From Trypanosoma brucei (Eukaryota), in assembly GCA_000002445.1 (NCBI GenBank), contig CP000071.1, forward strand, positions 1,824,001-1,888,000: a stretch of DNA of 64,000 nt, in the 5' to 3' direction. This document shows, one piece after another, positions 8,611 to 41,016 of the stretch. The notes beneath the pieces are model-generated. The model was not told the origin of the DNA and did not search any database. It worked only from the letters and a program-made list of their open reading frames with translations. A program made the translations under genes and the position numbers. Every line of letters begins with the position of its first letter. Position 1 is the stretch's first letter.

Positions 8611-11271
8611 ATGTCGAAGGCCCCTGAGCTGTGTTATTTGTTGCGCGCAGAGGGCCGCATTCATACAGCCGATGTTCGTCACGTTTCCTCTTCGTCGGGT
8701 CTCCTCTTAACCTCCTCGCGCGACCAGACTACTTTTGTCATTGATGCTCCAGGCACTACACCGTGGCCCTCAGGTGACGATTTTCCCACGGGGTTGACAC
8801 TCACCGGTCACACTGCTTTTGTCAACTTCGCCATAATGCATAGCGGGATACCGCTTTTGGGTGGTGAGCCATGCGTTATCACGGGCGGCAATGACAAACA
8901 TGTTGCACTATGGAACCCGCAAACAGCTGCGCTGGAAGCAGTTCTCGACAGTCACAGTCACGGTGTTTGCTGTGGTCTTGTGGTTACATCCACCGTTGCT
9001 GAAGGTGCGGGGCACGACGGTAGTGTTGGGGATATTGTGACAGGTGATTGGGGTGGTATGTGTCTCGTTTTTGATGCGACAACGGGTGATGTAAAGCAGT
9101 GCTACAGGGGACACTCAACAGCCGTTCGGAGTATCACGCAATTACCAAGGACCAGCAGCATTGTGAGCGCCTCTGGGGACAAAACCCTTCATCAGTGGAA
9201 CGTGGCGACGGGTGAGGAAATTGCCGTGTACACTGGTCATACAGATGTAGTTCAATGTGTATGTGCCATAAGCTCTACTCGGTTCGCCTCTGGTAGCAAC
9301 GATACGACGATCATAATTTGGGACACAACAGTTGGAACTCACCCCCTACGCAGCTTACTCATGCACCATAGTTTGGTCTACTCCTTGTGTTTTTGCAACG
9401 ACCGTCAGTTACTCTTCTCTGCTTCGGAAGACTGCACTGTGAAGGTGATTAGTGGCGCGAGCACTGTATCTGCCCCCACTGTAGGATCCTCGGTGGATGT
9501 TGGTGACGTGGCCGTAGTTCAGAGTATCAACCACCCATGTGTTGTGTGGTCTGTGTGCACAACGGAGGTTGGGGATATTGTGACGGGCGCCGCGGATGGT
9601 GCCGTGCGAGTGTGGACACTTAATGATGAGTTAATGGCATCTGTTGGAAAGTTGGAAGCACTTGCGGAGGCGGTTGCCACGCAGAAACTCGACATCAAGA
9701 TTACATCAATCGCCGGAACTAATATTGCTGATCTCCCCCCTGTAGAGCAACTCCATCAAAAGAAGGGGGTTCAAGAGGGTGAACGCTGCTTTGTACGCAC
9801 GAAGGGGGAAACGGTGGAAGTTTATGCATGGGACCAAGGCCGATGGGAGAAAATAGGCATCGTCACTGAGGGAACTCAGGGTCAACCGTACACAGGTGCG
9901 CAATCGGGCAGCGCAGCGCAGAAGCCCAAGGTGTATTTCAACGGGGTTCCCTACGATTACGTTTTCGATGTTGATGTGAATGGGACAATGCTTAAACTTC
10001 CGTACAACCGTGGTCAGAATATCTTTGACGCAGCGCAAGATTTCATCAATAAAAATAGCGCCGTTGTCTCCCAGACTCACAAGGAAGAGATACAAAACTT
10101 TATTCTGAATAACATCGACCCCCAGGACGCGCTGCTGCTGACCGGCTCGCAACAAGGGCTATCAGCTGCAGGGGGAGGAACGGTGTCTGGTGGTGGGAGT
10201 CATGAACCTGTTTTCTCCCAGTTCGCACGTGAAGCCATGGAGATGCGCCAAGCGGGTGCCTCGCACGTACCAAGTTGGGGTGAGGCGCTGCGAAACATGG
10301 AGAATGCCGGCGTAACTGCAAATGATGTTGCCTTCTCGGGTTATGCCCGCGAGGAGATTGAACTTCAAAGGCAGCAGGAGAAACAGCTGCCACAGGCGCC
10401 CACTGCGGGGGGAAGCGATGTCGTTGCATGGAGTAGTCATCGATACTTCACCTCCATCAACCTGGAGGGTGTGCAAAAGAAGATTAACGAACTAACAGGA
10501 GGCACGGAATTCGGAGAGCTCGTGCAACGAGTTGAGGCGGGAGCGAGGGCGGCGCCGAGTGTAGGCTTACTTCTTAACATCATGGAGCTTCACAAGCGGT
10601 TACCGGAGGCCTCGCGCTTCCCTGCGCTTGATTTGCTCAGTCGTCTACTGGCGGTGGGACGTCATCCCTACCGGTGGCTTCTGCTACTTTTAGGTGACAG
10701 CCCCGGGGAGTGGTATTGCTCCCCGCTAAAGTTTATGGAAGAATGCGTGTTGGGTGTCGACCGCGCCAGTGATGCTGAGTGTTTGGTGACTGTACGACTT
10801 TTCCTCCATGCTGCTGCAGCACTTGACGCCTTGCCGGCTAGCACCTCCATAACACCGGAACAAGCTGCGGTGCTGCTGCAGGCCTTTACACAAGCACCGC
10901 GTTCTTTCATCAAAAAGAATATGAACAACAACATGAAGAAATCAGTTAGTGCCCTGCTTCAGAATGTTTCCTTACTTCTTGCGCATGGCGCCCCAATGTT
11001 TGGTGATGAGGGTCGCCTGAACTGCACGCAGGAATGTGTGCGCATGGCATCCCACATGCTGCTACTGGAGCCCATGTCATCCCCCGTAATAGCGGAGGTA
11101 GTGGCCACGGTCTTAACGTTACTGCAGGCAGAAAGCACTGCTAACGCAGCTGCCGCTGTTGGTCGGGGCACTTTATTGCACACGATGCGTCTCCTGAAAT
11201 CTGGGTCAGAGCAGCGCTGCAGAAGGGCAGCAGATATAATCCTCCGTGTGCTAGAGGCTGATGGGTCTTGA
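8611..11271 (+). CDS. PLAA: Phospholipase A2-activating protein / Doa1/Ufd3 homologue (WD40 + PFU + PUL domains)
   Basis: The ORF starts with ATG. The N-terminus has a 7-bladed WD40 region (repeated GH..V...S.D.T...W motifs). The central PFU ubiquitin-binding domain is VPYDYVFDVDVNGTMLKLPYNRGQNIFDAAQDFINKN. The C-terminal region is an armadillo-like PUL domain. Confidence 0.85.
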   Translation: MSKAPELCYLLRAEGRIHTADVRHVSSSSGLLLTSSRDQTTFVIDAPGTTPWPSGDDFPTGLTLTGHTAFVNFAIMHSGIPLLGGEPCVITGGNDKHVALWNPQTAALEAVLDSHSHGVCCGLVVTSTVAEGAGHDGSVGDIVTGDWGGMCLVFDATTGDVKQCYRGHSTAVRSITQLPRTSSIVSASGDKTLHQWNVATGEEIAVYTGHTDVVQCVCAISSTRFASGSNDTTIIIWDTTVGTHPLRSLLMHHSLVYSLCFCNDRQLLFSASEDCTVKVISGASTVSAPTVGSSVDVGDVAVVQSINHPCVVWSVCTTEVGDIVTGAADGAVRVWTLNDELMASVGKLEALAEAVATQKLDIKITSIAGTNIADLPPVEQLHQKKGVQEGERCFVRTKGETVEVYAWDQGRWEKIGIVTEGTQGQPYTGAQSGSAAQKPKVYFNGVPYDYVFDVDVNGTMLKLPYNRGQNIFDAAQDFINKNSAVVSQTHKEEIQNFILNNIDPQDALLLTGSQQGLSAAGGGTVSGGGSHEPVFSQFAREAMEMRQAGASHVPSWGEALRNMENAGVTANDVAFSGYAREEIELQRQQEKQLPQAPTAGGSDVVAWSSHRYFTSINLEGVQKKINELTGGTEFGELVQRVEAGARAAPSVGLLLNIMELHKRLPEASRFPALDLLSRLLAVGRHPYRWLLLLLGDSPGEWYCSPLKFMEECVLGVDRASDAECLVTVRLFLHAAAALDALPASTSITPEQAAVLLQAFTQAPRSFIKKNMNNNMKKSVSALLQNVSLLLAHGAPMFGDEGRLNCTQECVRMASHMLLLEPMSSPVIAEVVATVLTLLQAESTANAAAAVGRGTLLHTMRLLKSGSEQRCRRAADIILRVLEADGS

Positions 11272-12243: not shown

Positions 12244-13254
12244 ATGAAGAAGGCTTTGATCTCGGATTTCTTTCGTGAGGGAGTAAATGTGGCTGCGCGG
12301 GGTGTAAGCGAATGCAATGGAGCTACTGCGCCTCAACTTCATTCTCGGTGTGATTCCAGCATAGATGATGTGGACAACCGAAGTGTTGGTTGTTGTCACA
12401 GTCGTTGCGATAGCGCAGGGAGCGAGTGGGTGTGCCCTGAACTGCATGAGAAACGCTCAGAGCGGGAAATCCTCCTCCTCACTCCATCCGTCGCCGCGCC
12501 CCAACATTACGACAAAAGAGAAAAGTTAAATGAAGCCGATTCCCTACACTTGAAACATGCAGCGGAGTATGAAATCATCGTCCCTGCTGTGGCCCGCGCG
12601 CTTCAACATGTGGTGGAGGCTCATGAAACCTGGCGGCTGGAGATGTCTTCATCTGCTGGTGGCATACGTGTGCGGAAAAGTCTCATTTCCAACAGTAGTG
12701 CCGCACATGCTGCTACAGATGTTGCTGCTGCATGTGGTTCTGAGGGCACCGTGAGAGAAAAGAAAAGGAATCACTATCCGCAGGTATTTGAATCAGCAGT
12801 GCCTCCACCCTTCACGCTCCTCCACTACGTGCAGATGCTGGCAAACCATACATTTGTATCGCCATCCGTCCTTGTTGCAGCGTGTTTATATACAGATCGA
12901 TTTATTGAACAGTGGTCCGACTTGCGGTTAACATTGAACAATGTATTCAAGATCTTTCTTACGGCTGTGCGCGTTGCCAACAAAATTCTGGACATTAGAG
13001 TACTAAATAATGAGGACTTCGCCGCTGTTGGTGGGGTGAGTAACCCGGAACTCAATGCCATGGAAAAGATATTTACATGGGGTCTACGATTTGACTTGTA
13101 CATCAGCTCAACGGAGTTTGACCGGTACGTCACCGGTCTCATGTCTCAATCTTCCACAAAACCTTTTAAGCAGGTCGGTTGCACTTGCAAAATCACGAAG
13201 TCAAACATTATGATTGAGGTACCTGCAGAGGCAGTGGAAGGCGCAGCAGTTTGA
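12244..13254 (+). CDS. PHO80-like cyclin (short paralogue)
   Basis: The track start at 12202 is a GTG. The first in-frame ATG is at 12244. The cyclin box is LLHYVQMLANHTFVSPSVLVAACLYTDRF...IFLTAVRVANKILDIRVLNNEDFAAVGGVSNPELNAMEKIFTWGLRFDLYISSTEFDRY. From memory, T. brucei has adjacent PHO80-type cyclins CYC10 and CYC11. I cannot verify that here. Confidence 0.8.
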   Translation: MKKALISDFFREGVNVAARGVSECNGATAPQLHSRCDSSIDDVDNRSVGCCHSRCDSAGSEWVCPELHEKRSEREILLLTPSVAAPQHYDKREKLNEADSLHLKHAAEYEIIVPAVARALQHVVEAHETWRLEMSSSAGGIRVRKSLISNSSAAHAATDVAAACGSEGTVREKKRNHYPQVFESAVPPPFTLLHYVQMLANHTFVSPSVLVAACLYTDRFIEQWSDLRLTLNNVFKIFLTAVRVANKILDIRVLNNEDFAAVGGVSNPELNAMEKIFTWGLRFDLYISSTEFDRYVTGLMSQSSTKPFKQVGCTCKITKSNIMIEVPAEAVEGAAV

Positions 13255-14716
13255 GCAAATCTCTCCTTTTTCATACCATAATATAATATTATTGGTAGTT
13301 CTCCTTCTTATCTTATCTTCTTCATCTTTTTTTCATATTCTCTTTTTTTTTCAAGTTTTTGTCTCCTTATGAGAGGTTGGTTGACAAGTGACTGCAACGA
13401 AATGCTTAGGCAAAAGTGAGAGGGGGAAAGTTTTTAAAAAAAGAAAAGAAGTGAGATATATGTGTGAAACAATGAGAGATTATTTTAAGTTCATTACTTA
13501 CCAATTTGTTTTCTCCTTTGGGTGCGAGTTAGGTTAAGGGAGAAATAAATCAATTACCACGGGATATAAATGTTTATATTTGTGTGAGTGCTTTTGTTTT
13601 TTTTTGCTTTATTTTTATTTGTCCGTGATTTTTTCTTTCCATTTCCTCTTTGTTTTTCATTTTCTGAGAGCTTCTTCTTGTTGTTGAGCGGAAGTTTCCA
13701 ACTGTTTTGTTTTTGTTTTTACCATCATTTACTTCCTTCTATTTCTTATTTTTCATTAATTCATTCAGTTTTTTTTGTTTTTGTTACGCCTTATTTACTT
13801 CTCTTCCCCACCACTATCATTTTCTTTTTGTTGTTGTTGAAGAAAGTTTTGTTCTTTTTTTTTTTTTTGATCGATTGATTTTGTTGTTTTTAGTTTGTTT
13901 GTTTTTGTTGTTTTTGTTGTTTGTGTGTTGCAATCGGCTGTGAAGATTTGCGTTTTTGTTTTTTTTTTGTGTGTGTGTGTTTGTTTTGGGGAAAAATAAA
14001 CGCCGTGGCGGCTTCACCATGCTTTTTTTTATTGTTTTTGCTTATGAAAAGGGATAATTTTTTTTTTTTAAAAAGAAAGTGATAAGTAACAAAGAGAAAT
14101 TTTTTTAAAAAAAGGTTAAAGTGCGTGGGGTAGAAATCAAAAAGAAAATGAAGAGAAAGAAAGTTTTTTCTTCTGCTTTTGTTGTGCCACTGCGAAGCTA
14201 AATGAAAGAGGGGAAGTAAACAAGTATATAAGTATATATTTATGTTTATTTATGTATACTTGTTTAAATGTACATTTATGTACAAATGAGGCAAACCAAA
14301 AAAAAAAGCAGAGGAAAAGAGGATTTTCTTCCCTTTTTATTTTATTTTTTTCTTTTGGATTCACTCCTGTTACGCATTGTTACGCCTTTATGTATTATTA
14401 TCATTATCATTATTATTATTATTACTATTATTATTCGGAAAGTATGACGATAAAAGTGAGAAGGCGAGTAGGTGAAATCACTCATATTTAAAGAAAAAGA
14501 AAAGGGTTGAAGGGAAGGAAAACAGAATGTATTCAAATGTATGCTTGTGTTTGTCTCTTTTTTTTTTATATATATTTTTCGAAAAAAAAAAAAGGAAGGG
14601 AAAAAAATGGACTTGCACTGGGAAACTTACAATAAAAGCAACTTATATTTGAAAGCAATAGGACGAAATAATATTAAATGAAGTGGTAATTTAATATTTT
14701 GTTCAATGTTAAATTT

Positions 14717-14748
14717 TCCCTTCCCCTCCCCCTCCCCCTCCCCCCTCT
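14717..14748. repeat. C-rich (CCCCT)n tract (G-rich on the minus strand)
   Basis: Read directly: cccttcccctccccctccccctcccccctc. Confidence 0.85.
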
Positions 14749-16065
14749 TTCGATTCCTTTTCTTTTTTGCTTTATTATCGTCATAACTATAACAATAATT
14801 ATTATTACTATCATTGTTACTTCTTTTATCATTATAATAATTTTCTATTAATATCATTTATTATTATTATTATTTATATTTGTGTGTAAGGCGCTGAAAG
14901 TAGCAGGAGAAGGAAAAAATAAAATAAAATAAAGACCAAAGAAAATATCAAAGAAAATAGCGAAGCAGAGATAAAATGATGAAATTATTAAAGAGTCAAT
15001 GGGTGTATTTAAGTGAATTGAGTGAATTTGCATTTGGAAGGTTTGGGAATTGAAATAATAACGGTGAGGGAGTTTTGATGGCTAACGGTGAGAAATGGAA
15101 ATAGAGAGAGTTTGTTTTTTTTTTGGTTTGTTTTTTTTTTGGTTTGTTTTTTTTTGGTGATTTACTTTCGCGACCCCTGCAGTTATTGTTGCGACCTCTG
15201 GATTTGTTCCACAGGGCTGCAGGTTTCTTTCACCTGTTATCTTTTTGTTTTATTTTGTTTTGTATTGCTTTTCACAAAAAAAAGAGAAAAAAAATAATAA
15301 TAATAAACGAAAAACTTTTTGTATAATGGTGCGTCACGTTTCATACAAACCATATCTTTAATATTTATATTTATCCATTTATTTACAAATAAATATTTAT
15401 AGTTATTTATCCCACTTCACTTCATCATGAGGTATATTCCGCTTCTAAACATAAATGTACCGGAATTTCTACCCTCTTTTTTTAAAAAAAAATAAAAATA
15501 AAAAGAATACTGACGGTTTTCATGCGAGTAACAAACTAAAAGCAAATAATTATTACCGTTGTGTTGTATGCTCATACGGTTGTTCAAAGCGTAGAGGTAA
15601 AAAAGAGAAGAAGAATAATAATAATAGTTTTATATTATTATTTTTTAAAAAAAGAAAGAAAGAAAGAAGAGAAAAATTAAAAATAAGAATAAAATTTTTC
15701 ATACCACCGTTCTTCCTGTCCTTGTCATCCTTCACCATTGAATTCCTTCAACTCTGTCCCCAATTGCAAAAGTCGCTTTTGCTTTCGTGTGTGTTTGCGT
15801 GTGTTTTTTTTCCTCCCTTCCCCCTTTAATTTCATTATTTTAAATTTATTTCTCTACAGCAACACCTCCTCACATCTTTCATTTCATTTCATTTTTTTTA
15901 TTGAAAACGTCAACATCTTTCGGTTTATATCTTTCGTTCCATTCATCGTTTTTTTTTCTTCTTCTCGTTGTTGTTGTTGTTGTTGTTTTCGCCATGTGGG
16001 CATGCGGGTGTATTTTCCCATTTCTTTTTATCTTTTGAGAATAAAATTTTTATACCGAATTTTTT

Positions 16066-16068
<3 letters not shown>

Positions 16069-16098
<30 letters not shown>
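16069..16098. repeat. (AT)15 microsatellite
   Basis: Read directly: atatatatatatatatatatatatatatat. Confidence 0.9.
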
Positions 16099-16101
<3 letters not shown>

Positions 16102-17800
16102 TTCCCCTTTTAATTTTATTTTTCAAACTTCACACCCCACACACACCCGCCTCACACATTCAAACAGACAAATACGCGCAAGCACGCGTGGTAAAAAAAA
16201 TAATAATAATAATAAATAAATAAAAATAGAAAAAGAGACATCCACGTCTTATTATCAGTAATATTAACACTAATGATTATTATTATCGTTATTATATCAA
16301 TGGTTATAATAATTATTGTTGTTATCATTACTGATGGATCCTTTTGGCGTGTTCATAAACAAACACCCGTCCCTTTTTGTATATATTTATTATTTATATC
16401 TACTTGTGAACGTTTATTATTACTATAAGGAAAAACAACAGCAACGATAAGGTGAAAGGAAAAAAGAAAAAAATAAAGTATGAAAGGAAAAAACAAAAAA
16501 AGAATAATGATGAAAAGAAAGTCATATAGGTTCCATGTCATTTTATTACCCTTTTTCTTTTTGACGCTGCTTTATGTTTTTTTTATATGTTTATATTTAT
16601 ATTTTCTTTTTCTTTTCGTTAATTTTTATACAGGTCTTCCATAACATTTTAAATCTAATTTGTTATTATTACTATCATTACAGTTTTTTTTTTCTTTGGG
16701 TCGTTAACACTGTTTCATATCCATGCTTGGATGTTAGTGTTTGACCGGAAGCGTCATCGGAAAATCATTTTCGACCATTTTTTTTTTTACTTTTCTTTCT
16801 TTTTTTGTATTTGCATATGTTCTTTTCTTTTCTTTTTTTTTCCTCATTCTTTTTTTGTTTGCGAATTAAAGGTAATGAGGCAAAAATACTTTGGTGGTCG
16901 CCTCTTACATGTGTTCATGTTCATGTTTATGTTTATGTTTATGTGTGTGTCTGTGTTTTGACTTTATGAGTAGTTGGATGCCGATTTTACGTCAGAATTA
17001 CATTTCACAACACATTTCCCATTCACTTCTTTTTTTTTTCCTCGCTATTGTTTCGCTTACTTTTCCATTCCATAATTCGCAATGGATGCGCAAGTGCTCG
17101 TATTTTGTTTTTTTTTTGTTGTTGTTGTTGCATTACGTGCTATTGATATTGTTTACTTCTATCGGTAATGCGTGATCATCTCTTATTTAATCAATCAAGT
17201 ATTTATTCTTCCTTATTTCTTTTTTCTATCTTACTATTTTGATAATCATTTATTAGTGAAAGTAAAAGGAATTGTTGTCATTAGGAAGTATAAGTTGAGA
17301 ATCAAATAGAATAAAAAGTTGCATCAAGCTGATAAACGACCTGAGACAAACGGCACGAAGAAATAGGGAAGGAAAATACGACAATTAGACAATCACAGCA
17401 TTTGAGGTTATATATATATATATATCTCTGTGTGTGTGTGTGTGCGTTTCATTATTTCCTTTGGGATTTTTAATTCTCCAGTGAAAATAAGGCATTTTCA
17501 CTACAACTGATTGATCGATACCCACTTTTCTCTCTCTCTTTCTCTTTCCTTTCACCGTTGGGCACAAAGTACTCCGTTTATCCCCTTGTTTCCTGGGTTT
17601 TTGTTACGCAGACGCAAAAGTGTCTGAAAATAAGAGGATAGGCAAAAAAAAAAAAGTAATACAAAAGGGAAGAAATTTCTTTCCTTTTTTTTCTTTTTTG
17701 CAGAAGGGAAACAAAAAGAAGTACAAAGTTATTGATAGTATTATTTAATCTCTCTAAATCCGGTGACTTGCGCCGCTATTGTTGACTGCTTCACCGACAG

Positions 17801-17842
17801 CATTATTTTTTTTTTTTTGTCGACTCTCCACGCTTCGCTCAC
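17801..17842 (+). promoter_or_regulatory. Polypyrimidine tract immediately upstream of the long cyclin paralogue
   Basis: cattatttttttttttttgtcgactctccacgcttcgctcac directly precedes the ATG at 17843. This would give a very short 5'UTR, so the acceptor AG may lie further upstream. Confidence 0.45.
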
Positions 17843-20206
17843 ATGACTGCTCAAACCCCCTCAGGGAAGGCGCATTGCGCTGATCATCAGACGGCTGATA
17901 TGTCGTTGTGGGAACTACCAGTGGATGAACCGTTTCCCCTCGTACAGTTGGTACTTTCTATCCATACACTTTACAATCTCCCGCCGGAACTGGGCCGACT
18001 TGACCCACGCTATGAGCAATTAGAAATTGTGATGTGGCCGGTTGTGAAGTACACATATCGTGAGCGGCGAATCATGCATCTCCCATTACCGGAGCACGTC
18101 TTTCCTGTCTCTGTTACCGCCATGGTGTTGCGAGGTGACACATATTTGATTGACTTTGATGGTATAAAGAAGGATGCCACATGTGAGTCAAGCACTTCAC
18201 TGAGCAGTTCTCCATCATTGGAAGCCCCAGAGGGAAGCAGTGGCGAGCAACCCGTTATTGTAAAGGGAAACTCCGCCACGCTACAGTTCCCGTGTCCCAC
18301 TGGGTTGAGGGCGGTGGTTCGGGTCTCAATTGGAGTCCGCCAGCGCCGGTTAGGCTTCTCTGCAGTGCGGTGGATCACTGAAAACGCAAATCCACGTACC
18401 ACATCGGATGGCATTGGCGTCTTTTCAGTTGCAACGGAGGAGGTTTATCGGACGAAGTTAGTCACACGTGTTGTGGGCCACAGCGTTGGTGCCATGATTT
18501 GCTCTCTTGGGGTCAACCCGTATGATGGTCGCGACGTTATTGTGCAGCGCCTCCTACGCGACAAGGAGCGGTTTACTTCCACATACGTCTCCCAGAGGCC
18601 CGTGCTGGAAAAGGCGAATGTAGAGGCGATGCTGCGAGATGGCTACAGTGAGCAGCTGATTTACCGTCACATGCTTTTGCTTGTCGAACCCAATCACTAC
18701 AAGATGAGGTTGGAAGCCCTATTCACAATGTACGATCTCAATAGGCGCCCGAGTTGGTGGAGAGACTCGTTGCTTCAGACTGATTACATTCTGCGGGAGG
18801 AGGAACTTATTCGACGTGTGTGTGTAGAGATCGGACCTGAATGCAGTGCAACATCCCCACGCTACCGTCTGTGGGCGTTCCGCAAAAAGTATTCCCTCAG
18901 TGAGACGAGTATTGTTTCATGCTTGCGGCCCATTATCAACTCCAGTGTTACTGAAGCACTTCTCTCCGAACCGGGGACCATTTTCGCTGCACTCACTCGC
19001 CGTTTCGGGTGCGAACCGCTGCCAACGGCGTATCTCTTTCCACCGCGAAGTTACGAAGGGGAGTATCGTACATTTATCTTTGAAGCACTGAGCCTTCCGC
19101 TGGGGCCGTTTATGGGTAAGTACACTGACGTGTCACACATCGCACGGGCCAAAAGGGCCCCTTTCACATCGTCACCGTACGAGCAGCCGCTTGCAAAGGT
19201 TGCGGCGGGAAGTCCGCACGGTGGCGTGATGAGTGAAGTGGATGCACTGCGCGCGAAGCATGCACCGGAGTTTGTACAGATTGTGCCTCCTATTGCCGCT
19301 GCGTTACGCGCCGTAGTGGAGCAGAGTGGGAAGTTACCACTGGAACAACAAGAAAAGGCGAACGCGGTAACACATATCTTCTGTGAGAGGCAAATGTCCC
19401 CGCAGGGGCCCTTCCATGATTTCATGCACCGACTGGCGGATCTGACGTTTATTTCACCCGCTACACTTCTTGGAGCGGCAATACTCCTTGACCGCCTCTG
19501 TATGCGGCGGCCTGATATCCTTGTCACGGAGTTGAATGCACCACGTCTCTTCCTCACCTCTGCGCGCGTTGTGTCGAAGGTTCTGGAGCTGCGGAGCGTC
19601 AGCAACCGTTGCTTCGCCAACGCCTTCGGGGTGAATACCAAGACGCTTAACCTGTGGGAAGAATTCTTTATCAAGATGCTCAAGTTTGACCTCTGCATTA
19701 AGCCACAGGAATTCAAGGAGTACACAAACTTACTTTTTACGTCGGGTGCCCCGCCAGTGCGGGTAGCGGCTTCTCCAATATCGAGATTCCGCATTCATAA
19801 CGACAATTTGTGCACGCGGATGGGGTCTCTAACGCGGAAATGTGAAGCAACAACAGCGCTGTCGAGCAGGTCCCTCCGCTCCACAGCCGTTGAAATACCA
19901 AACATGTACACCTACAACAAAAGGTACGGCCCGAGGCAAGGCGCAGATACTGGTTTGGATGGCAGCAATGTTGTTATTGGGCGTGAGGATGATGCAAGAA
20001 ACGCTAGTGCTGCACGGGACATAAAAGCTGCAGCAGGAGGCTCGGGCGGCTCATTGAGTACTTTTGAAGCTGGAACTATGGGTTGTTTATCACACGTAAA
20101 TGACGTGGGGATCCGACGGGGTACAGAACCGACCATTTTGCCTCGAAAAATATGCAATGGAAGGAATTTGAGCCCCTGTCTGACCGTGGCAAGGCGAGGG
20201 AGTTGA
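17843..20206 (+). CDS. PHO80-like cyclin (long paralogue with ~450-aa N-terminal extension)
   Basis: The ORF starts with ATG. The C-terminal cyclin box FMHRLADLTFISPATLLGAAILLDRL...LFLTSARVVSKVLELRSVSNRCFANAFGVNTKTLNLWEEFFIKMLKFDLCIKPQEFKEY is clearly paralogous to the cyclin box of the gene at 12244-13254. Confidence 0.8.
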   Translation: MTAQTPSGKAHCADHQTADMSLWELPVDEPFPLVQLVLSIHTLYNLPPELGRLDPRYEQLEIVMWPVVKYTYRERRIMHLPLPEHVFPVSVTAMVLRGDTYLIDFDGIKKDATCESSTSLSSSPSLEAPEGSSGEQPVIVKGNSATLQFPCPTGLRAVVRVSIGVRQRRLGFSAVRWITENANPRTTSDGIGVFSVATEEVYRTKLVTRVVGHSVGAMICSLGVNPYDGRDVIVQRLLRDKERFTSTYVSQRPVLEKANVEAMLRDGYSEQLIYRHMLLLVEPNHYKMRLEALFTMYDLNRRPSWWRDSLLQTDYILREEELIRRVCVEIGPECSATSPRYRLWAFRKKYSLSETSIVSCLRPIINSSVTEALLSEPGTIFAALTRRFGCEPLPTAYLFPPRSYEGEYRTFIFEALSLPLGPFMGKYTDVSHIARAKRAPFTSSPYEQPLAKVAAGSPHGGVMSEVDALRAKHAPEFVQIVPPIAAALRAVVEQSGKLPLEQQEKANAVTHIFCERQMSPQGPFHDFMHRLADLTFISPATLLGAAILLDRLCMRRPDILVTELNAPRLFLTSARVVSKVLELRSVSNRCFANAFGVNTKTLNLWEEFFIKMLKFDLCIKPQEFKEYTNLLFTSGAPPVRVAASPISRFRIHNDNLCTRMGSLTRKCEATTALSSRSLRSTAVEIPNMYTYNKRYGPRQGADTGLDGSNVVIGREDDARNASAARDIKAAAGGSGGSLSTFEAGTMGCLSHVNDVGIRRGTEPTILPRKICNGRNLSPCLTVARRGS

Positions 20207-22912: not shown

Positions 22913-25612
22913 ATGTTTTACTCAGGGTGGCAGTTTCCCACACCGCAGCGTTTGGAAGGTCGTGGTAGCGATGCGCAAAGTGGCTATCTCCTGCAGAACT
23001 CACAAAACTCAAGCATATCTTTCGTGCATTTTCTCCCATCTGGCGACAGACGCCAGTTGGTCCGACAGCGTGAAACCGGCTCCCGAATTCATCTCAAGAG
23101 TGACGTCTCCATCCACCCGAACAGCGGCGTGTTTTACTTCGAGGTTGAGGTCCAATTTTCCGGCGCCGCTGGAGGAGGAGGAGGTGGTGGTGGTGGTGGG
23201 GCGTCGGAACCGGCGTTGGTAATCGGCGTGTGCCGCCGGTCCCTCCCATCGAATGGGCTCCCGGGAGAAGAGGCCAATAGTGTCGGACTCTTCACTTCAC
23301 AGCGCATGGTGTATGCCAATGGGAAACGGGAGGGAGAAGTCGTACGGTTCCCTACAGGTACACGCGCACGAAGCATCGCAGGAAATAATGTCGACAGTAT
23401 CAACGGTGATGCCGCGGCAAGTGGGGAAAATGGAACTGCTGAAGGTGAGGAACAAGAAGGGCGGCGTTTTAGGGGACTTCGAGTAGGCGACACGGTGGGA
23501 TGCATTGTCAATTTGTTGGATGGAACAGTGCGCTTCACATTCAATGGGGAAATCCTTGACTTTACGGCTGTTTTGAGCCGTCGCACACCAAAACATGGGT
23601 ACTACGCCGCAGTCGGGGTCTTTCGGCGCGTTCCTCCCGTTGCGGTGCGAGTTATTTTTCCGTCGGTAGCACGGCAAACGCCCATTCCTCAGCCAATTTC
23701 CGCAACCGGTGCTGAAAAGAGAGAGGATGATGAGCAGCGGAAGGCGGAGCCCGCGGTGGGTTCTGTGCTTAATGAGGCTGCATCACGCGGAGGTTATTTT
23801 AATTTTGACATCGACGGGTACTGTGAGGACGTTACGAAGAAATTGGTGTTGGCGCACCTCCTAGGGAAAGCGAAGGGGCCCGTGGTTGAGCTGAAAGAAA
23901 ATGAATGCACGTGTCGTGACACGAGCATCGTAGCGGCCATATGCAAGCATTTAGCAGCGCGTGGCATGACAAGTGCCCTTTCTGCCTTCGAAAAGGAGCA
24001 ACAGGAACTTACCTGTGCCAAATGTGGCTGCGGAGCTGAACCCCCTGAAAAAGCAGATGCGGCCATTCCAAAACATGTTGATCCGACAAGTGAAATGCTG
24101 GGGGCCGGAACCTACAACCGCAGTAACGGGGACAGTTTAACCAGCGGAACTTGCACAGAAAGTGAATCACGCACCGTCACCTACAGTGCACACATCAGGC
24201 GACTTCGTGAAGATGTGGGCAATGGTAGAATGTCCGCTGCTGTGGAGCGCACGCTTAGCTTTGGGCTTGTTTCCCCGGGGGTGCTCGAAAAGGTGAGGAG
24301 TTGCGTTGAAAATGTTGACGCACTTCTCCCTGACTTCTGGGGTCTTCTTTTTTTCGCCCAGCGCTGTGATATCCTCTTTCTCCTTCGTGTTACTCATTTG
24401 GTGGAACTTTCGTTTGACACTATGCAAAGAAGACTCGAAATTCTGCTCCGCAATGTTAGTGGTGAAGGGAGCATCGGTAGGAATGCAACTGAGGACGCCC
24501 ATGAAGCAGAAACTACTACCGCATGCCCATTCACAACCGCCGCTGAGCTAATGGAGTTCGCACACCGCTTCCTTCTTGAGCCTATGAGAAGCGTTGCTTC
24601 CACTATTCGACAGCACCGCAACAGCACAACAAAGGGACCATGGACCAGTGAAGTTCTTGCCTTCGGTTCTTTTGAAAGCAGCGCCGACGAGGGTACTGAT
24701 TCGTTCGAAGAGCTCGCAGCGCATCTATTCGTGAGCGGCCGGGACAGCTCTTGGTCAGGACCTGAGGCTCCTGCAACACTTCTGGTGCGGCACAGTGTAC
24801 CCAACGTACCGGCTCCAAAATCCCAACAGCAGCGGCGCATCGTGCAGACACTTGCAACGCTCATCTCCCACCAACGTGCAGTTTGCGCGCGGGCAGAGCG
24901 ATACCACAAGCCGGGCATGTCATACAAGTGGGCGGAGGAGTGGCTGGTTCTCGTGGAGGACACTCGGCGGGAGTGCCGCACCCGTTGTACATCACTCCTC
25001 CTTCATGCGATTGAGGATTTCAACGGTGCGTTAGAGCATCGTCTGGTGGTGTGGACGCAGCGGCAACAGCAACGCACGAGGGGGGTGGCATTTGGTGGTA
25101 GCTTAGAGCAACATGGTGCCCCGGTTGTGCCTTCAAAAAGTGGTGGCAAGGAGGGAGAAAACGCGGCGGTGGAGACTAGGGAAGTTCTATTCCCTTCACT
25201 GCGCTCGGCGTGGCGGCACGTGCATGCAGCTGCTGCGTTGGAACCACTTCTTCAGGTTGTAACAAAAGCCTTTAGTGATCAGCTTAATCGGGTAGTTGTT
25301 AATGCGCGACTGATGGCAGAGTCCATTTCAACGAAGGAACCGCCTTCCACTTTCTGCAAGGGCCCCAAGCGCGGCATTCTTCACTCACCCGAGTTGAGCG
25401 TAAGCGGTGCAGACAAGAAGGTTGCTGAAAGCAACGGAAGTAGTGCTTCCTCATGTGAGCCATCCGTGGGTTCCCGCACAGCACCGGTAGAAAGCGAGAG
25501 GGAATGTGTCAGTAACAACAGCGTATGCCAAAAGAGAATGGCATGTTATACGGATGACTTACGTATGAGTTTCCTGTATATGAAGAGCGTTTATAGGGCG
25601 GTTTTTGCCTAG
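22913..25612 (+). CDS. SPRY (B30.2) domain-containing protein, 899 aa
   Basis: The ORF starts with ATG. The SPRY core is GVFYFEVEV..poly-Gly..LVIGVC....VGLFTSQRMVYANGK...GDTVGCIVNLLDGTVRFTFNGE...GYYAAVGV. The remainder is unrecognised. Confidence 0.6.
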   Translation: MFYSGWQFPTPQRLEGRGSDAQSGYLLQNSQNSSISFVHFLPSGDRRQLVRQRETGSRIHLKSDVSIHPNSGVFYFEVEVQFSGAAGGGGGGGGGGASEPALVIGVCRRSLPSNGLPGEEANSVGLFTSQRMVYANGKREGEVVRFPTGTRARSIAGNNVDSINGDAAASGENGTAEGEEQEGRRFRGLRVGDTVGCIVNLLDGTVRFTFNGEILDFTAVLSRRTPKHGYYAAVGVFRRVPPVAVRVIFPSVARQTPIPQPISATGAEKREDDEQRKAEPAVGSVLNEAASRGGYFNFDIDGYCEDVTKKLVLAHLLGKAKGPVVELKENECTCRDTSIVAAICKHLAARGMTSALSAFEKEQQELTCAKCGCGAEPPEKADAAIPKHVDPTSEMLGAGTYNRSNGDSLTSGTCTESESRTVTYSAHIRRLREDVGNGRMSAAVERTLSFGLVSPGVLEKVRSCVENVDALLPDFWGLLFFAQRCDILFLLRVTHLVELSFDTMQRRLEILLRNVSGEGSIGRNATEDAHEAETTTACPFTTAAELMEFAHRFLLEPMRSVASTIRQHRNSTTKGPWTSEVLAFGSFESSADEGTDSFEELAAHLFVSGRDSSWSGPEAPATLLVRHSVPNVPAPKSQQQRRIVQTLATLISHQRAVCARAERYHKPGMSYKWAEEWLVLVEDTRRECRTRCTSLLLHAIEDFNGALEHRLVVWTQRQQQRTRGVAFGGSLEQHGAPVVPSKSGGKEGENAAVETREVLFPSLRSAWRHVHAAAALEPLLQVVTKAFSDQLNRVVVNARLMAESISTKEPPSTFCKGPKRGILHSPELSVSGADKKVAESNGSSASSCEPSVGSRTAPVESERECVSNNSVCQKRMACYTDDLRMSFLYMKSVYRAVFA
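23170..23199 (+). repeat. Coding (GGA)n(GGT)n repeat encoding poly-Gly in the SPRY gene
   Basis: Read directly: ggaggaggaggaggtggtggtggtggtggg. It is translated as GGGGGGGGGG. Confidence 0.9.
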
Positions 25613-37900: not shown

Positions 37901-38444
37901 AGTGCTTGAGCGGTAGGTTTACAAATGAATTTGGTGGTGAAGGTAAAGTTCAGTGTGTATGATTGTTTCACATGTTATTTGTTACAGATTCATTATTATT
38001 ATTATTATTGTTGTTGTTGTTGTTGTCACTACTTTTTTTTTTAAAAATCCGCGAACGAAATAAGAATGAAAATGGACAGTGCCTTGTGAACCTAAAGTGC
38101 CACGTAGTGTTGTCGCTTAGTCTGGAGCTACATTGTATACCAAACACTTTTTCGCACCACTCGTTTCTTCTTTTTTTTTTTGGTTTCGTTCGGTTTTGTC
38201 TTGCGTGTTCGGTTTTCTTTTCCCTCCTTTGGGTAAAGTATTAGCACGCTAAAGAAAAGATCAACGGCAGAGTCCCCCTTTTTTTGTTTTTGTTTTTGAA
38301 TTGCTTTTAGCGGCGCGGAACTCACAAAAGTTCGCACAACCTAAACGCATACACAGCACATCAAAGTGGAAGAAAAAAAAGAAGGAAGACTTCAAAATAA
38401 CAATAACAATTTAAAAGAAATAACAAGTAATACCAACTACAGCA

Positions 38445-38762
38445 ATGGTAAAGTTGACTCATGAAGATACGCAGCGCATCAAAACTGCTTTTCTCTCTTA
38501 TTCACAGGGTCAACCGAAGGTGACGGAGCAGATGATGGACCAACTTATTTGTGGTGCCATTCCGGGAATTTCATGGGAAGAACTTCAGGCAAAGAAGGGC
38601 CCCAAGGCAGCGCAGGGATATGACCGCAGCGCGTTCTTTTCATTGGTTACTTCTGACGACCGGTACGTGCAGTTTATTGTCGCCAACTTCCCCCCAGCAC
38701 CTGAAGAGGAAAAGGCGCCGCAGGTCGATGCATTGGAATTGAAAACTGCAAAGGGTTTCTAA
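38445..38762 (+). CDS. Small hypothetical protein, 105 aa
   Basis: The ORF starts with ATG and is non-repetitive. Its codon usage is similar to the neighbours, and a T-rich tract lies ~150 bp upstream. I do not recognise the family. Confidence 0.4.
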   Translation: MVKLTHEDTQRIKTAFLSYSQGQPKVTEQMMDQLICGAIPGISWEELQAKKGPKAAQGYDRSAFFSLVTSDDRYVQFIVANFPPAPEEEKAPQVDALELKTAKGF

Positions 38763-39234
38763 GTTGTGCAGTTGTGCCGGTGCCGGGAAGCAAAAAAAAA
38801 AAGAAGAAAAAAGGAAAGATTTCTCAAGAGGAGCTGCAGGAAGAAATGCGGATGAAGCGAACCCGTATGCGAACTAATGGGAAAATCACATACAAGTGAA
38901 GAGATGAATATATATATATATATATATATGGAGGAGTTGCTACGGCACTTGATGATACATATGTAAGTGAGCCAACTCATATGCGTGTACGTGCATGGAT
39001 GTGTGTATATAAAGGAAAGTTAGGTGGAGTAAGAATTCATACACACGCACATATATATATATATTTTTATTTATGGATATTTTCTGTGGAGGTGCGGGCT
39101 CCACTAAAGTAATAGAGGGAATGAGAAGGTTGGCTAGAGGAATACGTGCCTGTACCTGAATGTGGACCTTGTATTGTTGTTGTTGTTGTTGTTTCCTTTT
39201 CCACGAACCCTTCAATATATACCACCTTCTTTCG

Positions 39235-39235
<1 letters not shown>

Positions 39236-39271
<36 letters not shown>
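39236..39271. repeat. (TA)n(TG)n compound microsatellite
   Basis: Read directly: tatatatatatatatatatat followed by gtgtgtgtgtgtgtgt. Confidence 0.9.
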
Positions 39272-39460
39272 ACATGTATGTGTGTCTGAAAGGCATATAA
39301 TAAAGCTTATATCAAATATGTTTTTTTTTTTTCGTTGCTTATGGATCATCCCTTACCCGCGTTTCCGCGATCGTGTGATGAACTTTTCGTTCTATTTATG
39401 ATAGCGGTTTCTACTGTATTTGTTAGCGACCCGTGGCTCTTGTTTATATATCTTTATGGG

Positions 39461-39481
39461 CATTTCCTTTTTTTTTTTTTA
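39461..39481 (+). promoter_or_regulatory. T-rich polypyrimidine tract upstream of the PABPN1-like gene
   Basis: catttcc followed by T17, 30 nt upstream of the ATG at 39511. AG dinucleotides follow at 39496-39500. Confidence 0.5.
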
Positions 39482-39510
39482 CGTATGTGTGATGAAGGAA
39501 GGATTGAACA

Positions 39511-40065
39511 ATGGAAGACAATCTTGCGGCAGAAATTGCGCGAATAGAGGCGGAGTTGGAAGCGGACCGACAGCAGCGCGAAAAACAACAACAGCAACAA
39601 CAACAACAACAGCAGCAGCAGCAGCATCAAATGAGCATGCAAAACATGATGCCCAGCTTTGGTGTATCCGCAGTTCCACAACCAATGCAACATCAACATC
39701 AACATCAGCAGTCACAACAACAGTCACCACAGCAAATGGGTGTATTGCATGGGCAAGTCAGTGGTTCAACATCACATGCGCCTGGTCAACCTCACCATTT
39801 CTCAAAGGATAGCGATGGGCGATCCATTTTTGTTGGAAATCTTCCTAAAGGTGATAATGGCGGACCCACAACCACGCCAGAGGAGTTGGCGCATTTATTT
39901 GCCGACTGTGGTCCCATCCTCAACTGTACGTTACTGCGCGATCGCACAACTGGTGAGTTGAAGGGCACGGCATATGTTGAATTTTCCACTTACACCGGAA
40001 TGGGTAAAGCTATTGATACTAAAAACAACACCATGTTCAAGGGTAGTACTTTAATTGTATGTTGA
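39511..40065 (+). CDS. Nuclear poly(A)-binding protein PABPN1/PABP2-like (coiled coil + poly-Gln + single RRM)
   Basis: The ORF starts with ATG immediately after a T17 polyY tract. The N-terminus has a coiled coil (AAEIARIEAELEADRQQREKQ). The RRM RSIFVGNLP...ELAHLFADCGPILNCTLLRDRTTGELKGTAYVEFSTYTGMGKAI...FKGSTLIV is collinear with the PABPN1 RRM (SIYVGNVDY...GFAYIEF...FRGRQIKV). Confidence 0.7.
   Translation: MEDNLAAEIARIEAELEADRQQREKQQQQQQQQQQQQQHQMSMQNMMPSFGVSAVPQPMQHQHQHQQSQQQSPQQMGVLHGQVSGSTSHAPGQPHHFSKDSDGRSIFVGNLPKGDNGGPTTTPEELAHLFADCGPILNCTLLRDRTTGELKGTAYVEFSTYTGMGKAIDTKNNTMFKGSTLIVC
39584..39630 (+). repeat. Coding (CAA/CAG)n repeat encoding poly-Gln in the PABPN1-like gene
   Basis: Read directly. 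It is translated as QQQQQQQQQQQQQQQQ. Confidence 0.9.
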
Positions 40066-41016
40066 CCGTGAGTTCCTGTACATAATGGGGCGCATTTTTT
40101 TGTGTGCGTTCCCTTCAACTTCTCCCCACTTTTCCCACTCCCCTCTACAAACAGGGGAACGAACTGAAGGGTGCGAGAGGAAGTGATTGAGTGAATAATA
40201 ACAACAACAATAACAACAACAACAACATTTAAGTAAATAAATAAACAAATAATAGTGAATAGTAATAGTGGTAATACTAGTAGTGATTTTAATTTCTTTT
40301 CTTTTCTTTTCTTTTTTTTTTGTTTTTGAAAAAAAAAAGAAAATCAAAATCAAAATAATAAAGAGAGTGAAAAACGTTAGCAGCATAATGACACAACCAT
40401 TGAAAAATGCTTCACAACAAAAACAAACTAAACAATGGAAGAAAAACAATAATAATAATAATAATAATAATATAATGGCGCTAACAGTACATACACCACT
40501 AAATGAAGTATTGGAAACGGGGTGGAAAGAAAACTTTTATATAATATATATATATATATATCAAATTACTGAGCAACAACAAAAATAACAATAGCAACAA
40601 AGAAATGCACTAAAAACCAAAAATAAAAAAAGAATATGGGGCTTTAGACCTCTTCTATCGTCACCCCCCATAGATGGCTTAGATTCACAAAAAAAAAAAT
40701 AAAAGAAAGAAAGAAAGAATATTGGTACTGTCACCAAAATTAACAAATATAACAATGATAGTGCAACAGTATCATCCACCAACAAAAAATATATATATAT
40801 AAGTAGCACGCGCAAAAAAAAAAAAAGAACATACACAAACATTGCGTAAATGCCCTCATTCACTTACTTGCAATCCCTCAGCCGCTCCCCTCCTCCTCTC
40901 TTCATTCTCCTCTCTCATTTTTTTTTAAATATATATATATATATACTCATGAATCAATGTGAAATCACTTCTTCTTCTTTCCACTCCTCCATTCTTTTTT
41001 TTTCTTTAATACTTCG

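What the first reader, a model, noticed from the sequence alone, without database searches (positions are those of the whole stretch)
12244..20206. Tandem PHO80-like cyclin paralogues of different size, separated by a 4.6-kb repeat-dense spacer
Two genes 4.6 kb apart carry clearly paralogous cyclin boxes, each ~130 aa: FLTAVRVANKILDIRVLNNEDFAAVGGVSNPELNAMEKIFTWGLRFDLYISSTEFDRY versus FLTSARVVSKVLELRSVSNRCFANAFGVNTKTLNLWEEFFIKMLKFDLCIKPQEFKEY. The downstream copy has a ~450-aa N-terminal extension, which suggests it acquired an extra regulatory domain after duplication. Trypanosomatid PHO80-type cyclins partner with CRK kinases in nutrient and cell-cycle control. Adjacent, architecturally different paralogues suggest sub-functionalisation. 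From memory, T. brucei CYC10 and CYC11 are neighbours of this type, but I cannot confirm this.
Basis: partly seen in the sequence, partly recalled or inferred. Interest (0 to 1): 0.55.

Follow-up and report, generated by a model that had tools for sequence, protein, structure and literature searches.

The report
Known trypanosome cyclin pair CYC10/CYC11
The two neighbouring genes are the already catalogued Trypanosoma brucei cyclins CYC10 and CYC11, an ancient tandem pair kept side by side across trypanosomatids; the only fresh point is that CYC11's long N-terminal extension is predicted to fold as a C2-like domain plus a helical domain.

Summary
ORFs 12244-13254 (336 aa) and 17843-20206 (787 aa) both match Pfam PF08613, the PHO80-like cyclin family. 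They align at 30% identity over 216 aa and lie 4,588 bp apart on the + strand.

Both proteins are identical to T. brucei TREU927 proteins XP_847464.1 and XP_847465.1. These correspond to the published CYC10 (Tb927.8.6340) and CYC11 (Tb927.8.6350), so the pair is already known.

The order WD40/PFU gene, short cyclin, long spacer, long cyclin, SPRY gene recurs in T. cruzi and, from the short cyclin onward, in Leptomonas. A cyclin pair also occurs on two metagenome contigs. The duplication therefore predates the Trypanosoma/Leishmaniinae split.

The spacer holds only low-complexity microsatellites. It has no Rfam hit and no conserved ORF, so it is most likely the CYC10 3'UTR plus the CYC11 5'UTR. 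Published data show both mRNAs rise together under heat shock and in vivo. RNAi in procyclic forms gave no phenotype.

The kinase partners and the role of the C2-like domain remain inferred.

The parts
8611..11271 (+). Upstream neighbour, a WD40/PFU (PLAA-like) protein of 886 aa. It serves as a synteny anchor.
   Evidence: ORF. Identical to XP_847463.1, which sources name 'WD domain, G-beta repeat/PFU'. Orthologues sit upstream of the cyclin pair in T. cruzi (51% identity) and on metagenome contig L003 (34% identity).
12244..13254 (+). CYC10 coding sequence (Tb927.8.6340), 336 aa, a PHO80-like cyclin.
   Evidence: ORF. Identical to XP_847464.1/Q57YN5 'CYC2-like cyclin'. PF08613 E 2.6e-17. Locus tag and name come from PMC1914216 Table 2 and the PMC3616968 supplement. 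Orthologous to the syntenic T. cruzi gene at 37% identity, E 4e-50.
12715..13098 (+). CYC10 cyclin box (aa 158-285).
   Evidence: Envelope of the PF08613 match. The best solved-structure relative by sequence is yeast PHO80, 2pk9_B, E 1.4e-5.
13255..17842 (+). AT-rich low-complexity spacer of 4,588 bp. Inferred to be the CYC10 3'UTR, the intergenic region and the CYC11 5'UTR.
   Evidence: GC 0.297 and microsatellite fraction 0.127. Only low-complexity repeat families. No Rfam family at gathering score. No ORF or DNA conserved with the T. cruzi or Leptomonas spacers.
14388..14435 (+). (UUA/AUU)n microsatellite, about 16 copies.
   Evidence: TRF. (AUU)4 windows number 11 in the spacer against 0 expected from dinucleotide shuffles.
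14798..14874 (+). Imperfect (AUU)n microsatellite, about 25 copies.
   Evidence: TRF and repeat family D1.
17676..17703 (+). Polypyrimidine tract (17676-17699) followed by AG (17702-17703). A candidate trans-splice acceptor for CYC11 (inferred).
   Evidence: Sequence read and polyY/AG scan. No RNA data were available here.
17843..20206 (+). CYC11 coding sequence (Tb927.8.6350), 787 aa.
   Evidence: ORF. Identical to XP_847465.1/Q57YN6. Full-length orthologues are named 'Cyclin 11' in T. theileri, T. cruzi, Leptomonas and Angomonas.
17939..18514 (+). CYC11 aa 33-224, a predicted C2-like beta-sandwich with a disordered loop at aa 109-141.
18530..19033 (+). CYC11 aa 230-397, a conserved alpha-helical domain of unassigned fold.
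19064..19369 (+). CYC11 aa 408-509, the pre-box region shared with CYC10-type and short CYC11-like cyclins.
   Evidence: Many short homologues align from query aa ~408-460 onward. Alignment rows. Its C-terminal part (aa 463 onward) aligns with CYC10 from aa 95.
19370..19693 (+). CYC11 cyclin box (aa 510-617).
   Evidence: PF08613 E 1.2e-11. Best solved relative is PHO80, 2pk9_B, E 7.2e-4.
19769..20203 (+). CYC11 C-terminal tail (aa 643-787), not aligned to CYC10.
   Evidence: It lies outside the BLASTP alignment, and most phmmer matches to orthologues end by about aa 643.
22913..25612 (+). Downstream neighbour, an SPRY-domain protein of 899 aa. It serves as a synteny anchor.
   Evidence: ORF. 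Named an SPRY domain protein. An SPRY gene also follows CYC11 in T. cruzi and Leptomonas.

Best explanation
These are the T. brucei genes CYC10 (Tb927.8.6340) and CYC11 (Tb927.8.6350). They are two divergent members of the PHO80-like (P/U-type) cyclin family and lie in tandem within one polycistronic transcription unit on chromosome 8.

They descend from a tandem duplication that predates the split of Trypanosoma from the Leishmaniinae, and they have stayed adjacent since then.

By analogy with other cyclins of this family, each is expected to bind and activate a Cdc2-related kinase (CRK) through its cyclin box. This step is inferred, not shown.

CYC11 also carries an ancestral N-terminal module, made of a predicted C2-like beta-sandwich and a conserved helical domain. 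This module most plausibly targets the cyclin-kinase pair to a membrane, a cytoskeletal site or particular substrates. This too is inferred.

The 4.6-kb spacer is non-coding. It is most likely the long AU-rich 3'UTR of CYC10, followed by the intergenic region and the CYC11 5'UTR. It is the likely seat of the post-transcriptional control that raises both mRNAs under heat shock and in parasites taken from hosts. The expression changes are published. The role of the UTR is inferred.
For: Identity:
- Both proteins match XP_847464.1 and XP_847465.1 exactly, on a 2.48-Mb T. brucei TREU927 record, and are named 'CYC2-like cyclin'.
- PMC1914216 Table 2 lists CYC10 as Tb927.8.6340 and CYC11 as Tb927.8.6350, both 'CYC2-like'.
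- The PMC3616968 supplement labels Tb927.8.6340 'CYC2-like cyclin, putative (CYC10)'.

Family:
- PF08613 hits lie above the gathering score for both proteins.
- PHO80 (2pk9_B) is the best solved relative of both.

Paralogy:
- BLASTP gives E 1e-24.
- In the NJ bootstrap the two share a clade that excludes 63 other P-type representatives in 98 of 100 replicates.

Age:
- T. cruzi has WD40/PFU, a 508-aa cyclin, a 3.8-kb spacer, CYC11 and SPRY in that order.
- Leptomonas has a 701-aa cyclin, a 7.6-kb spacer, CYC11 and SPRY.
- Tandem cyclins also occur on two metagenome contigs, one of them behind the WD40 orthologue.
- TbCYC10 is closer to TcCYC10 (162 bits) than to TbCYC11 (92 bits). The two CYC10 proteins share an insertion of about 40 aa that CYC11 lacks.

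N-terminal module:
- It is conserved in six or more taxa.

Spacer:
- There are no Rfam hits and no conserved ORF or DNA. Only low-complexity repeats are present.
- All genes in the window are on the + strand.

Expression:
- Both mRNAs rise on heat shock.
- Both are higher in human and rat blood or CSF parasites than in culture.
- Both T. cruzi orthologues are listed among the cyclins upregulated along the epimastigote growth curve.
Against: - No CRK partner for either protein was found in the literature I could read. The key interaction paper (Liu, Hu and Li 2013) is not held.
- RNAi of either gene in procyclic forms gave no phenotype.
- A published phylogeny calls them only 'likely divergent members' of the P-type family.
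- The C2 assignment rests on a predicted model from a shallow alignment of 10 sequences. Foldseek support is weak (best E about 1e-3, TM 0.17), and there is no sequence match to any Pfam C2 family.
- The UTR boundaries were not measured. The spacer holds many internal polypyrimidine tracts that could act as processing sites.
- TbCYC10 sits on a long branch and does not group with TcCYC10 in the NJ tree. Its orthology rests on synteny and pairwise scores.
Confidence: 0.85

Rival explanations
1. A recent, T. brucei-lineage tandem duplication, after which the downstream copy picked up a new regulatory domain. This is the natural reading of the first reader's note.
For: The genes are adjacent and on the same strand, and their cyclin boxes are clearly alignable.
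Against: The copies are only 30% identical. The same gene order is present in T. cruzi and Leptomonas. Each copy is closer to its positional orthologue than to its neighbour. The N-terminal module is present in Leptomonas, Angomonas, Phytomonas and T. theileri.
Confidence: 0.02
2. The 450-aa 'extension' is an annotation artefact. On this view the real CYC11 starts near the pre-box region, and the upstream part is either a separate gene or is not translated.
For: Short homologues that begin at the pre-box region exist. Examples are P0029-P0035 and the L003 copy, which lacks the C2 module. T. b. gambiense annotates a different start, giving 768 aa.
Against: There is one uninterrupted ORF with coding-like GC (0.53, against 0.30 in the spacer). 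The single-ORF architecture is the same in six or more species. The conserved residues are confidently folded. The P0025 gene on L004 has the same fusion.
Confidence: 0.03
3. The spacer holds a functional element of its own, such as an ncRNA gene, a small ORF, a replication or transcription boundary, or a structured repeat. It would then be more than UTR.
For: It is the most AT-rich and most microsatellite-dense intergenic region in the window. A long spacer is kept at this position in T. cruzi (3.8 kb) and Leptomonas (7.6 kb). (AUU)n and UAUUUAU motifs exceed the shuffle expectation.
Against: No Rfam family reaches the gathering score. No sequence or ORF is conserved with the other spacers beyond low complexity. 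All repeat families are simple sequence. Flanking genes are all on one strand, so this is not a strand-switch region. Other regions of 4-7 kb in the window are likewise lower in GC than the short intergenic regions.
Confidence: 0.07
4. CYC10, CYC11 or both are cyclin-fold proteins that no longer act as kinase activators. They would be pseudo-cyclins or scaffolds.
For: RNAi gave no phenotype in procyclic forms. They are described as divergent. The PF08613 scores are modest at 46-64 bits. TbCYC10 lies on a long branch.
Against: Both are conserved in sequence and position across trypanosomatids. The cyclin box is the best-conserved part. Regulated expression suggests they are in use.
Confidence: 0.12

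Closest known systems
T. brucei CYC10 (Tb927.8.6340) and CYC11 (Tb927.8.6350), listed as 'CYC2-like' cyclins in Hammarton 2007 (PMC1914216)
   Same: These are the same genes. The protein sequences are identical to the TREU927 records. The names and consecutive locus tags agree.
   Different: Nothing differs. The papers I could read do not describe a domain structure for the CYC11 N-terminus or discuss the conserved tandem synteny.
Yeast Pho80 (PDB 2pk9/2pmi), the cyclin partner of the kinase Pho85
   Same: It is the best solved-structure relative by sequence for both boxes, and it belongs to the same Pfam family, PF08613.
   Different: The similarity is distant (E 1e-5 and 7e-4) and covers only about 100 residues. 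Pho80 has no C2-like or helical N-terminal module. No kinase partner or phosphate-sensing role is shown for the trypanosome proteins.
T. brucei CYC2 (CycE1), the characterised PHO80-like G1 cyclin
   Same: It belongs to the same broad family and gives the annotation class 'CYC2-like' its name. It is known to work with CRK1, CRK2 and CRK3 (background text).
   Different: CYC2 knockdown gives a G1 phenotype, whereas CYC10 and CYC11 knockdowns gave none in procyclic forms. CYC10 and CYC11 are described as divergent from the CYC2/4/7 group. I could not place a named CYC2 sequence in my own tree.
Cyclin Y (PDB 9r2i/9r2n), a membrane-anchored relative of PHO80-like cyclins
   Same: It is the second solved relative of CYC10 (E 0.0057). 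From general knowledge, it is a cyclin taken to the plasma membrane by an N-terminal signal, which parallels the targeting role proposed here for the CYC11 C2-like domain.
   Different: Cyclin Y uses N-myristoylation (general knowledge) rather than a C2 fold. The sequence similarity is marginal. This is an analogy only.
C2 domains (CEP120 C2C, otoferlin C2A, extended synaptotagmin C2, CC2D1B)
   Different: Sequence identity is 3-14% and no Pfam C2 model matches. There is a disordered insertion of about 33 aa. Calcium or lipid binding is untested. The hits do not separate membrane-type from centriolar or ciliary C2 domains.

Membership tests
PHO80-like / P-type cyclins (Pfam PF08613) | Significant match to the PF08613 profile above its gathering score | tested here: met
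   CYC10 scores 64.1 bits and CYC11 45.7 bits against a cut-off of 21 bits. The T. cruzi and Leptomonas orthologues score 64-85 bits.
PHO80-like / P-type cyclins (Pfam PF08613) | Closest solved structure is a PHO80-family cyclin | tested here: met
   2pk9_B (PHO80) is the top hit for both boxes.
PHO80-like / P-type cyclins (Pfam PF08613) | Five-helix cyclin-box fold | not tested
The cyclin box itself was not modelled.
PHO80-like / P-type cyclins (Pfam PF08613) | Binds and activates a CDK-family kinase (CRK) | not testable with these tools
   This needs two-hybrid, co-IP or kinase assays. The paper most likely to hold such data (PMC3787976) is not available.
T. brucei CYC10 / CYC11 (identity) | Protein sequence identical to the reference-strain gene products | tested here: met
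   Exact look-up returns XP_847464.1 and XP_847465.1 from TREU927 on a 2,481,190-bp record.
T. brucei CYC10 / CYC11 (identity) | Locus tags Tb927.8.6340 and Tb927.8.6350 map to these two ORFs | tested here: inconclusive
   The tags are consecutive and both genes are called 'CYC2-like cyclin', which matches the names of the exact-match records. Orthologues of the long gene are named cyclin 11. A direct table linking tags to accessions was not available.
C2 domain superfamily | Eight-stranded beta-sandwich superposable on known C2 domains | tested here: met
C2 domain superfamily | Sequence match to a curated C2 family profile | tested here: not met
   No Pfam family matches aa 1-480 at E up to 1. 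A profile search of PDB sequences found no C2 hit.
C2 domain superfamily | Calcium or phospholipid binding, or another demonstrated ligand | not testable with these tools
   This needs lipid-binding or localisation experiments.
ZC3H11 heat-shock regulon (mRNAs stabilised through 3'UTR (AUU)n repeats) | (AUU)4 or longer in the 3'UTR | tested here: met
   Runs are present at 14409-14423 and 14858-14872, within longer arrays. This assumes the UTR extends that far.
ZC3H11 heat-shock regulon (mRNAs stabilised through 3'UTR (AUU)n repeats) | [quoted passage not shown] | tested here: not met
   In the PMC3616968 supplement, the row for Tb927.8.6340 carries a value of 0.84 that I read as the bound/unbound ratio (column headers were not shown), together with a heat-shock ratio of 16.47. 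It is not filed as a member of this regulon.

The most novel reading that the evidence does not exclude
CYC11 may be a 'C2-domain cyclin'. An ancestral fusion would have joined a kinetoplastid-type C2-like plus helical module to a PHO80-like cyclin. The same module is found on an unrelated 1,182-aa protein with a Cys/His-rich (B-box-like) stretch, a predicted coiled-coil region and a TPR-like C-terminus. The module would place a CRK kinase at a specific membrane, flagellar or cytoskeletal site. CYC11 and its tandem partner CYC10 would be co-induced by stress or host conditions through long AU-rich UTRs. I found no description of this architecture in the searchable literature.
Probability: 0.3. 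Interest if true: 0.45.

Novelty: already known. Interest (0 to 1): 0.2.

Why it matters
The pair itself adds nothing new. CYC10 and CYC11 have been in the T. brucei cyclin catalogue since about 2007, and their adjacency is implicit in their locus tags.

Two modest points may help specialists. First, the tandem arrangement and a long spacer at this position are conserved across trypanosomatids, while the spacer sequence is not. Together with the published co-regulation of the two mRNAs, this suggests the pair is kept together and controlled post-transcriptionally. Second, the uncharacterised 400-aa N-terminus of CYC11 is predicted to be a C2-like domain plus a conserved helical domain. This yields a concrete localisation or targeting hypothesis for a cyclin that so far has no phenotype and no known partner.

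Tried and rejected
1. ZC3H11 binding to the (AUU)n runs in the spacer. I first misread the value 16.5 in PMC3616968 as ZC3H11 binding. It is the heat-shock induction ratio from Table 2. In the supplement row a value of 0.84, which I read as the bound/unbound ratio, shows no enrichment. Rejected.

2. RBP10 motif UA(U)6. It occurs 3 times against 4.1 expected, so it is not enriched.

3. A hidden gene or ncRNA in the spacer. There are no Rfam hits in the whole window, no tblastn or blastn conservation with the T. cruzi, Leptomonas or metagenome spacers beyond simple sequence, and only low-complexity ORFs.

4. The search for homologous proteins, used three times: on full-length CYC11, on its N-terminal 461 aa, and on alignment A1. 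It returned only the query itself and P0025. The word prefilter failed for this family. The orthologues came from the exhaustive representative search instead.

6. Foldseek of the 455-aa model against the PDB. The hits are weak. The PI3K-gamma alignments cover most of the 455-aa model and presumably span its C2 and helical domains, but TM is about 0.17. I treat this as not informative.

7. The afdb50 fold library was unavailable.

8. The Liu, Hu and Li 2013 paper on PHO80-like cyclin-CRK interactions is not held.

9. An exact 'CYC10+CYC11 superclade' bipartition was recovered in 0 of 100 bootstraps, because membership of the many unnamed metagenome sequences is unstable. Only the weaker statement holds, that TbCYC10 and TbCYC11 group to the exclusion of the 63 outgroup sequences, at 98 of 100.

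Full report
**Observation**

The window carries about 20 ORFs of 200 aa or more with coding-like GC content. All are on the + strand, as expected for a trypanosomatid polycistronic unit.

Two of these ORFs are the subject of the finding: 12244-13254 (336 aa) and 17843-20206 (787 aa).

Both proteins match Pfam PF08613 (PHO80-like cyclin) well above the gathering score, at 64.1 and 45.7 bits against a cut-off of 21. Both give weaker hits to Cyclin_N.

They align to each other at 30% identity over 216 aa, with E 1e-24. The alignment starts at aa 95 of the short protein and aa 463 of the long one. The long protein therefore has roughly 460 residues upstream of the shared part. It also has a tail of about 145 residues downstream of it.

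The spacer between them (13255-17842) is 4,588 bp with GC 0.297. It has the highest microsatellite content of any intergenic region in the window.

**Identity**

An exact-sequence look-up shows that both proteins are identical to T. brucei brucei TREU927 proteins XP_847464.1/Q57YN5 and XP_847465.1/Q57YN6. Both are named 'CYC2-like cyclin' and lie on a 2,481,190-bp record. The flanking WD40/PFU and SPRY genes also match that record exactly.

Hammarton's 2007 review lists CYC10 as Tb927.8.6340 and CYC11 as Tb927.8.6350, both in the class 'CYC2-like' (PMC1914216). A supplementary table of PMC3616968 labels Tb927.8.6340 'CYC2-like cyclin, putative (CYC10)'.

Full-length orthologues of the long protein are named 'Cyclin 11' in T. 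theileri, T. cruzi, Leptomonas seymouri and Angomonas deanei.

**Age of the pair**

An exhaustive phmmer search with CYC11 found 977 relatives.

Loci fetched for its orthologues show the same gene order in two other trypanosomatids:
- T. cruzi has WD40/PFU, a 508-aa PF08613 cyclin, a 3.8-kb spacer, CYC11 (782 aa) and an SPRY gene.
- Leptomonas has a 701-aa cyclin, a 7.6-kb spacer, CYC11 (980 aa) and an SPRY gene.

Two metagenome contigs also carry two PF08613 cyclins in tandem. One of them lies directly behind an orthologue of the WD40/PFU gene (34% identity to the T. brucei protein, against 51% for T. cruzi).

TbCYC10 is closer to the syntenic T. cruzi gene (37% identity, 162 bits) than to TbCYC11 (92 bits). 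In both species CYC10 has an insertion of about 40 residues, between the pre-box helix and the box, that CYC11 lacks.

I built an NJ tree of 117 cyclin-box columns from 127 sequences. TbCYC10 and TbCYC11 fall in a clade that excludes all 63 remaining P-type representatives in 98 of 100 bootstraps. The trypanosomatid CYC11 group is recovered in 51 of 100 and the T. cruzi plus Leptomonas CYC10 group in 82 of 100.

The duplication therefore predates the split of Trypanosoma from the Leishmaniinae. Whether it is older still is only suggested. The metagenome sequences do not sort cleanly into CYC10 and CYC11 groups, and on contig L003 the two copies are each other's nearest relatives.

One sampled member of the wider clade is a Diplonema papillatum 'Cyclin-U3-1'. 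I could not put a named T. brucei CYC2, CYC4 or CYC7 sequence into the tree. A published phylogeny states that CYC2, CYC4 and CYC7 are P-type cyclins, with CYC10 and CYC11 'likely divergent members' (PMC4643991).

**The N-terminal extension of CYC11**

The extension is conserved end to end in T. theileri, T. cruzi, Leptomonas, Angomonas, Phytomonas and one metagenome protein, P0025.

It has no Pfam match at E up to 1. A profile search of PDB sequences also finds no relative.

AlphaFold2 on a 10-sequence alignment gives pTM 0.70. The model has these parts:
- a beta-sandwich at aa 33-224, interrupted by a disordered loop at aa 109-141;
- a helical domain at aa 230-397;
- a disordered linker at aa 400-455.

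The same C2-like plus helical module occurs at the N-terminus of an unrelated 1,182-aa protein, P0157. There it is followed by a Cys/His-rich stretch, a predicted coiled-coil region and weak TPR/Sel1-like matches.

The region just before the box (CYC11 aa 408-509) is shared with many short cyclins. These include the upstream copy on L003. This region, or at least its C-terminal part, which CYC10 retains, therefore probably predates the duplication. The L003 downstream copy lacks the C2 module.

The simplest history is a fusion of the module onto the CYC11 lineage before trypanosomatids radiated.

**The spacer**

All tandem and dispersed repeat families in the spacer are simple sequence: ATT/TTA, TTG, poly-T, AT, TG and A/G-rich runs.

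No Rfam family reaches its gathering score anywhere in the window. Neither blastn nor six-frame tblastn finds anything shared with the T. cruzi, Leptomonas or metagenome spacers beyond low complexity.

Other long intergenic regions in the window are also below the short ones in GC. Examples are 52354-56337 (GC 0.337) and 37901-45081 (GC 0.419).

A polypyrimidine tract at 17676-17699 followed by AG at 17702-17703 is a plausible trans-splice acceptor for CYC11.

I infer that most of the spacer is the CYC10 3'UTR. (AUU)4 windows number 11 against 0 expected, and UAUUUAU motifs 11 against 2.1 expected, in dinucleotide shuffles.

The obvious candidate reader of (AUU)n is ZC3H11, but it does not appear to enrich CYC10 mRNA. 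The supplement row gives 0.84, which I read as the bound/unbound ratio. I dropped that idea.

**Function**

Published data show three things:
[quoted passage not shown] CYC10 rises 16.5-fold at 41 degrees C (PMC3616968). CYC10 rises 2.6-fold and CYC11 3-fold at 39 degrees C (PMC5015846).
- Both are higher in parasites from human blood and CSF, and from rat blood, than in culture (PMC5842037).
- Both T. cruzi orthologues are listed among the cyclins upregulated along the epimastigote growth curve (PMC5907844).

Single RNAi knockdowns in procyclic forms gave no phenotype (PMC2754446). No kinase partner could be retrieved.

The most likely mechanism is that both proteins act as CRK-activating cyclins used under stress or host-associated conditions, with the C2-like module giving CYC11 a distinct location or substrate range. 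This is an inference from family membership and domain architecture. It has not been shown.

**Verdict**

The finding is real and correctly interpreted in outline, but it describes two catalogued genes. The 'recent sub-functionalising duplication' flavour is not supported, because the pair is ancient. The spacer is ordinary trypanosome UTR-type DNA.

The one observation with some residual novelty is the predicted C2-like plus helical module on CYC11 and its occurrence on another protein. I found no description of it in the searchable literature.

Noticed in passing
P0157 (1,182 aa, Logan assembly, unnamed); matches window 18455-19057: An unrelated protein has the same C2-like plus helical module at its N-terminus (tblastn E 7.9e-17 to T. 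brucei CYC11 and 1.5e-25 to L004). The module is followed by a Cys/His-rich stretch that looks B-box-like, a predicted coiled-coil region and weak TPR/Sel1-like matches. The module therefore seems to be mobile among euglenozoan-type proteins.
   Followed up: partly
L003:6844-7854 and L003:10001-11794 (ENA metagenome contig, 67.6 kb): The two tandem cyclins on this contig are each other's nearest relatives in the NJ tree, and the downstream one lacks the C2 module. This suggests either an independent duplication or gene conversion in that organism. An array of at least seven SRCR-domain genes follows directly.
   Followed up: partly
window 17843-17899: T. b. gambiense annotates CYC11 as 768 aa, that is, starting at the second Met (window 17900). 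The first 29 residues or so are unconserved and predicted to be disordered, so the true start codon is uncertain.
   Followed up: partly
window 13255-17842; L001:6216-10000; L002:2390-10000: The spacer between the two cyclins is long in all three trypanosomatids (4.6, 3.8 and 7.6 kb). It is short on the metagenome contigs (0.49 and 2.1 kb). No sequence conservation is detectable, so length but not sequence appears to be maintained.
   Followed up: partly
window 12244-13254 versus L001:4689-6215: CYC10 varies greatly in length between species: 336 aa in T. brucei, 457 in T. grayi, 508 in T. cruzi and 701 in Leptomonas. T. brucei CYC10 sits on a long branch and fails to group with T. cruzi CYC10 in the box tree, despite clear synteny.
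   Followed up: partly
window 52354-56337: This is another long (3,984 bp) AT-rich intergenic region, with GC 0.337 and three separate (AUU)4-or-longer runs. It resembles the CYC10-CYC11 spacer in character.
   Followed up: no
window 37901-45081: This apparent 7.2-kb 'intergenic' gap holds several shorter + strand ORFs with non-repetitive translations: 38445-38762 (105 aa), 39511-40065 (184 aa, Gln-rich N-terminus), 42734-43099 (121 aa) and 43906-44601 (231 aa). They were not examined.
   Followed up: no
window 19051-19794 (- strand): A 247-aa antisense ORF lies wholly inside the CYC11 coding sequence. It is most likely a by-product of the GC-rich coding strand and not a gene.
   Followed up: no
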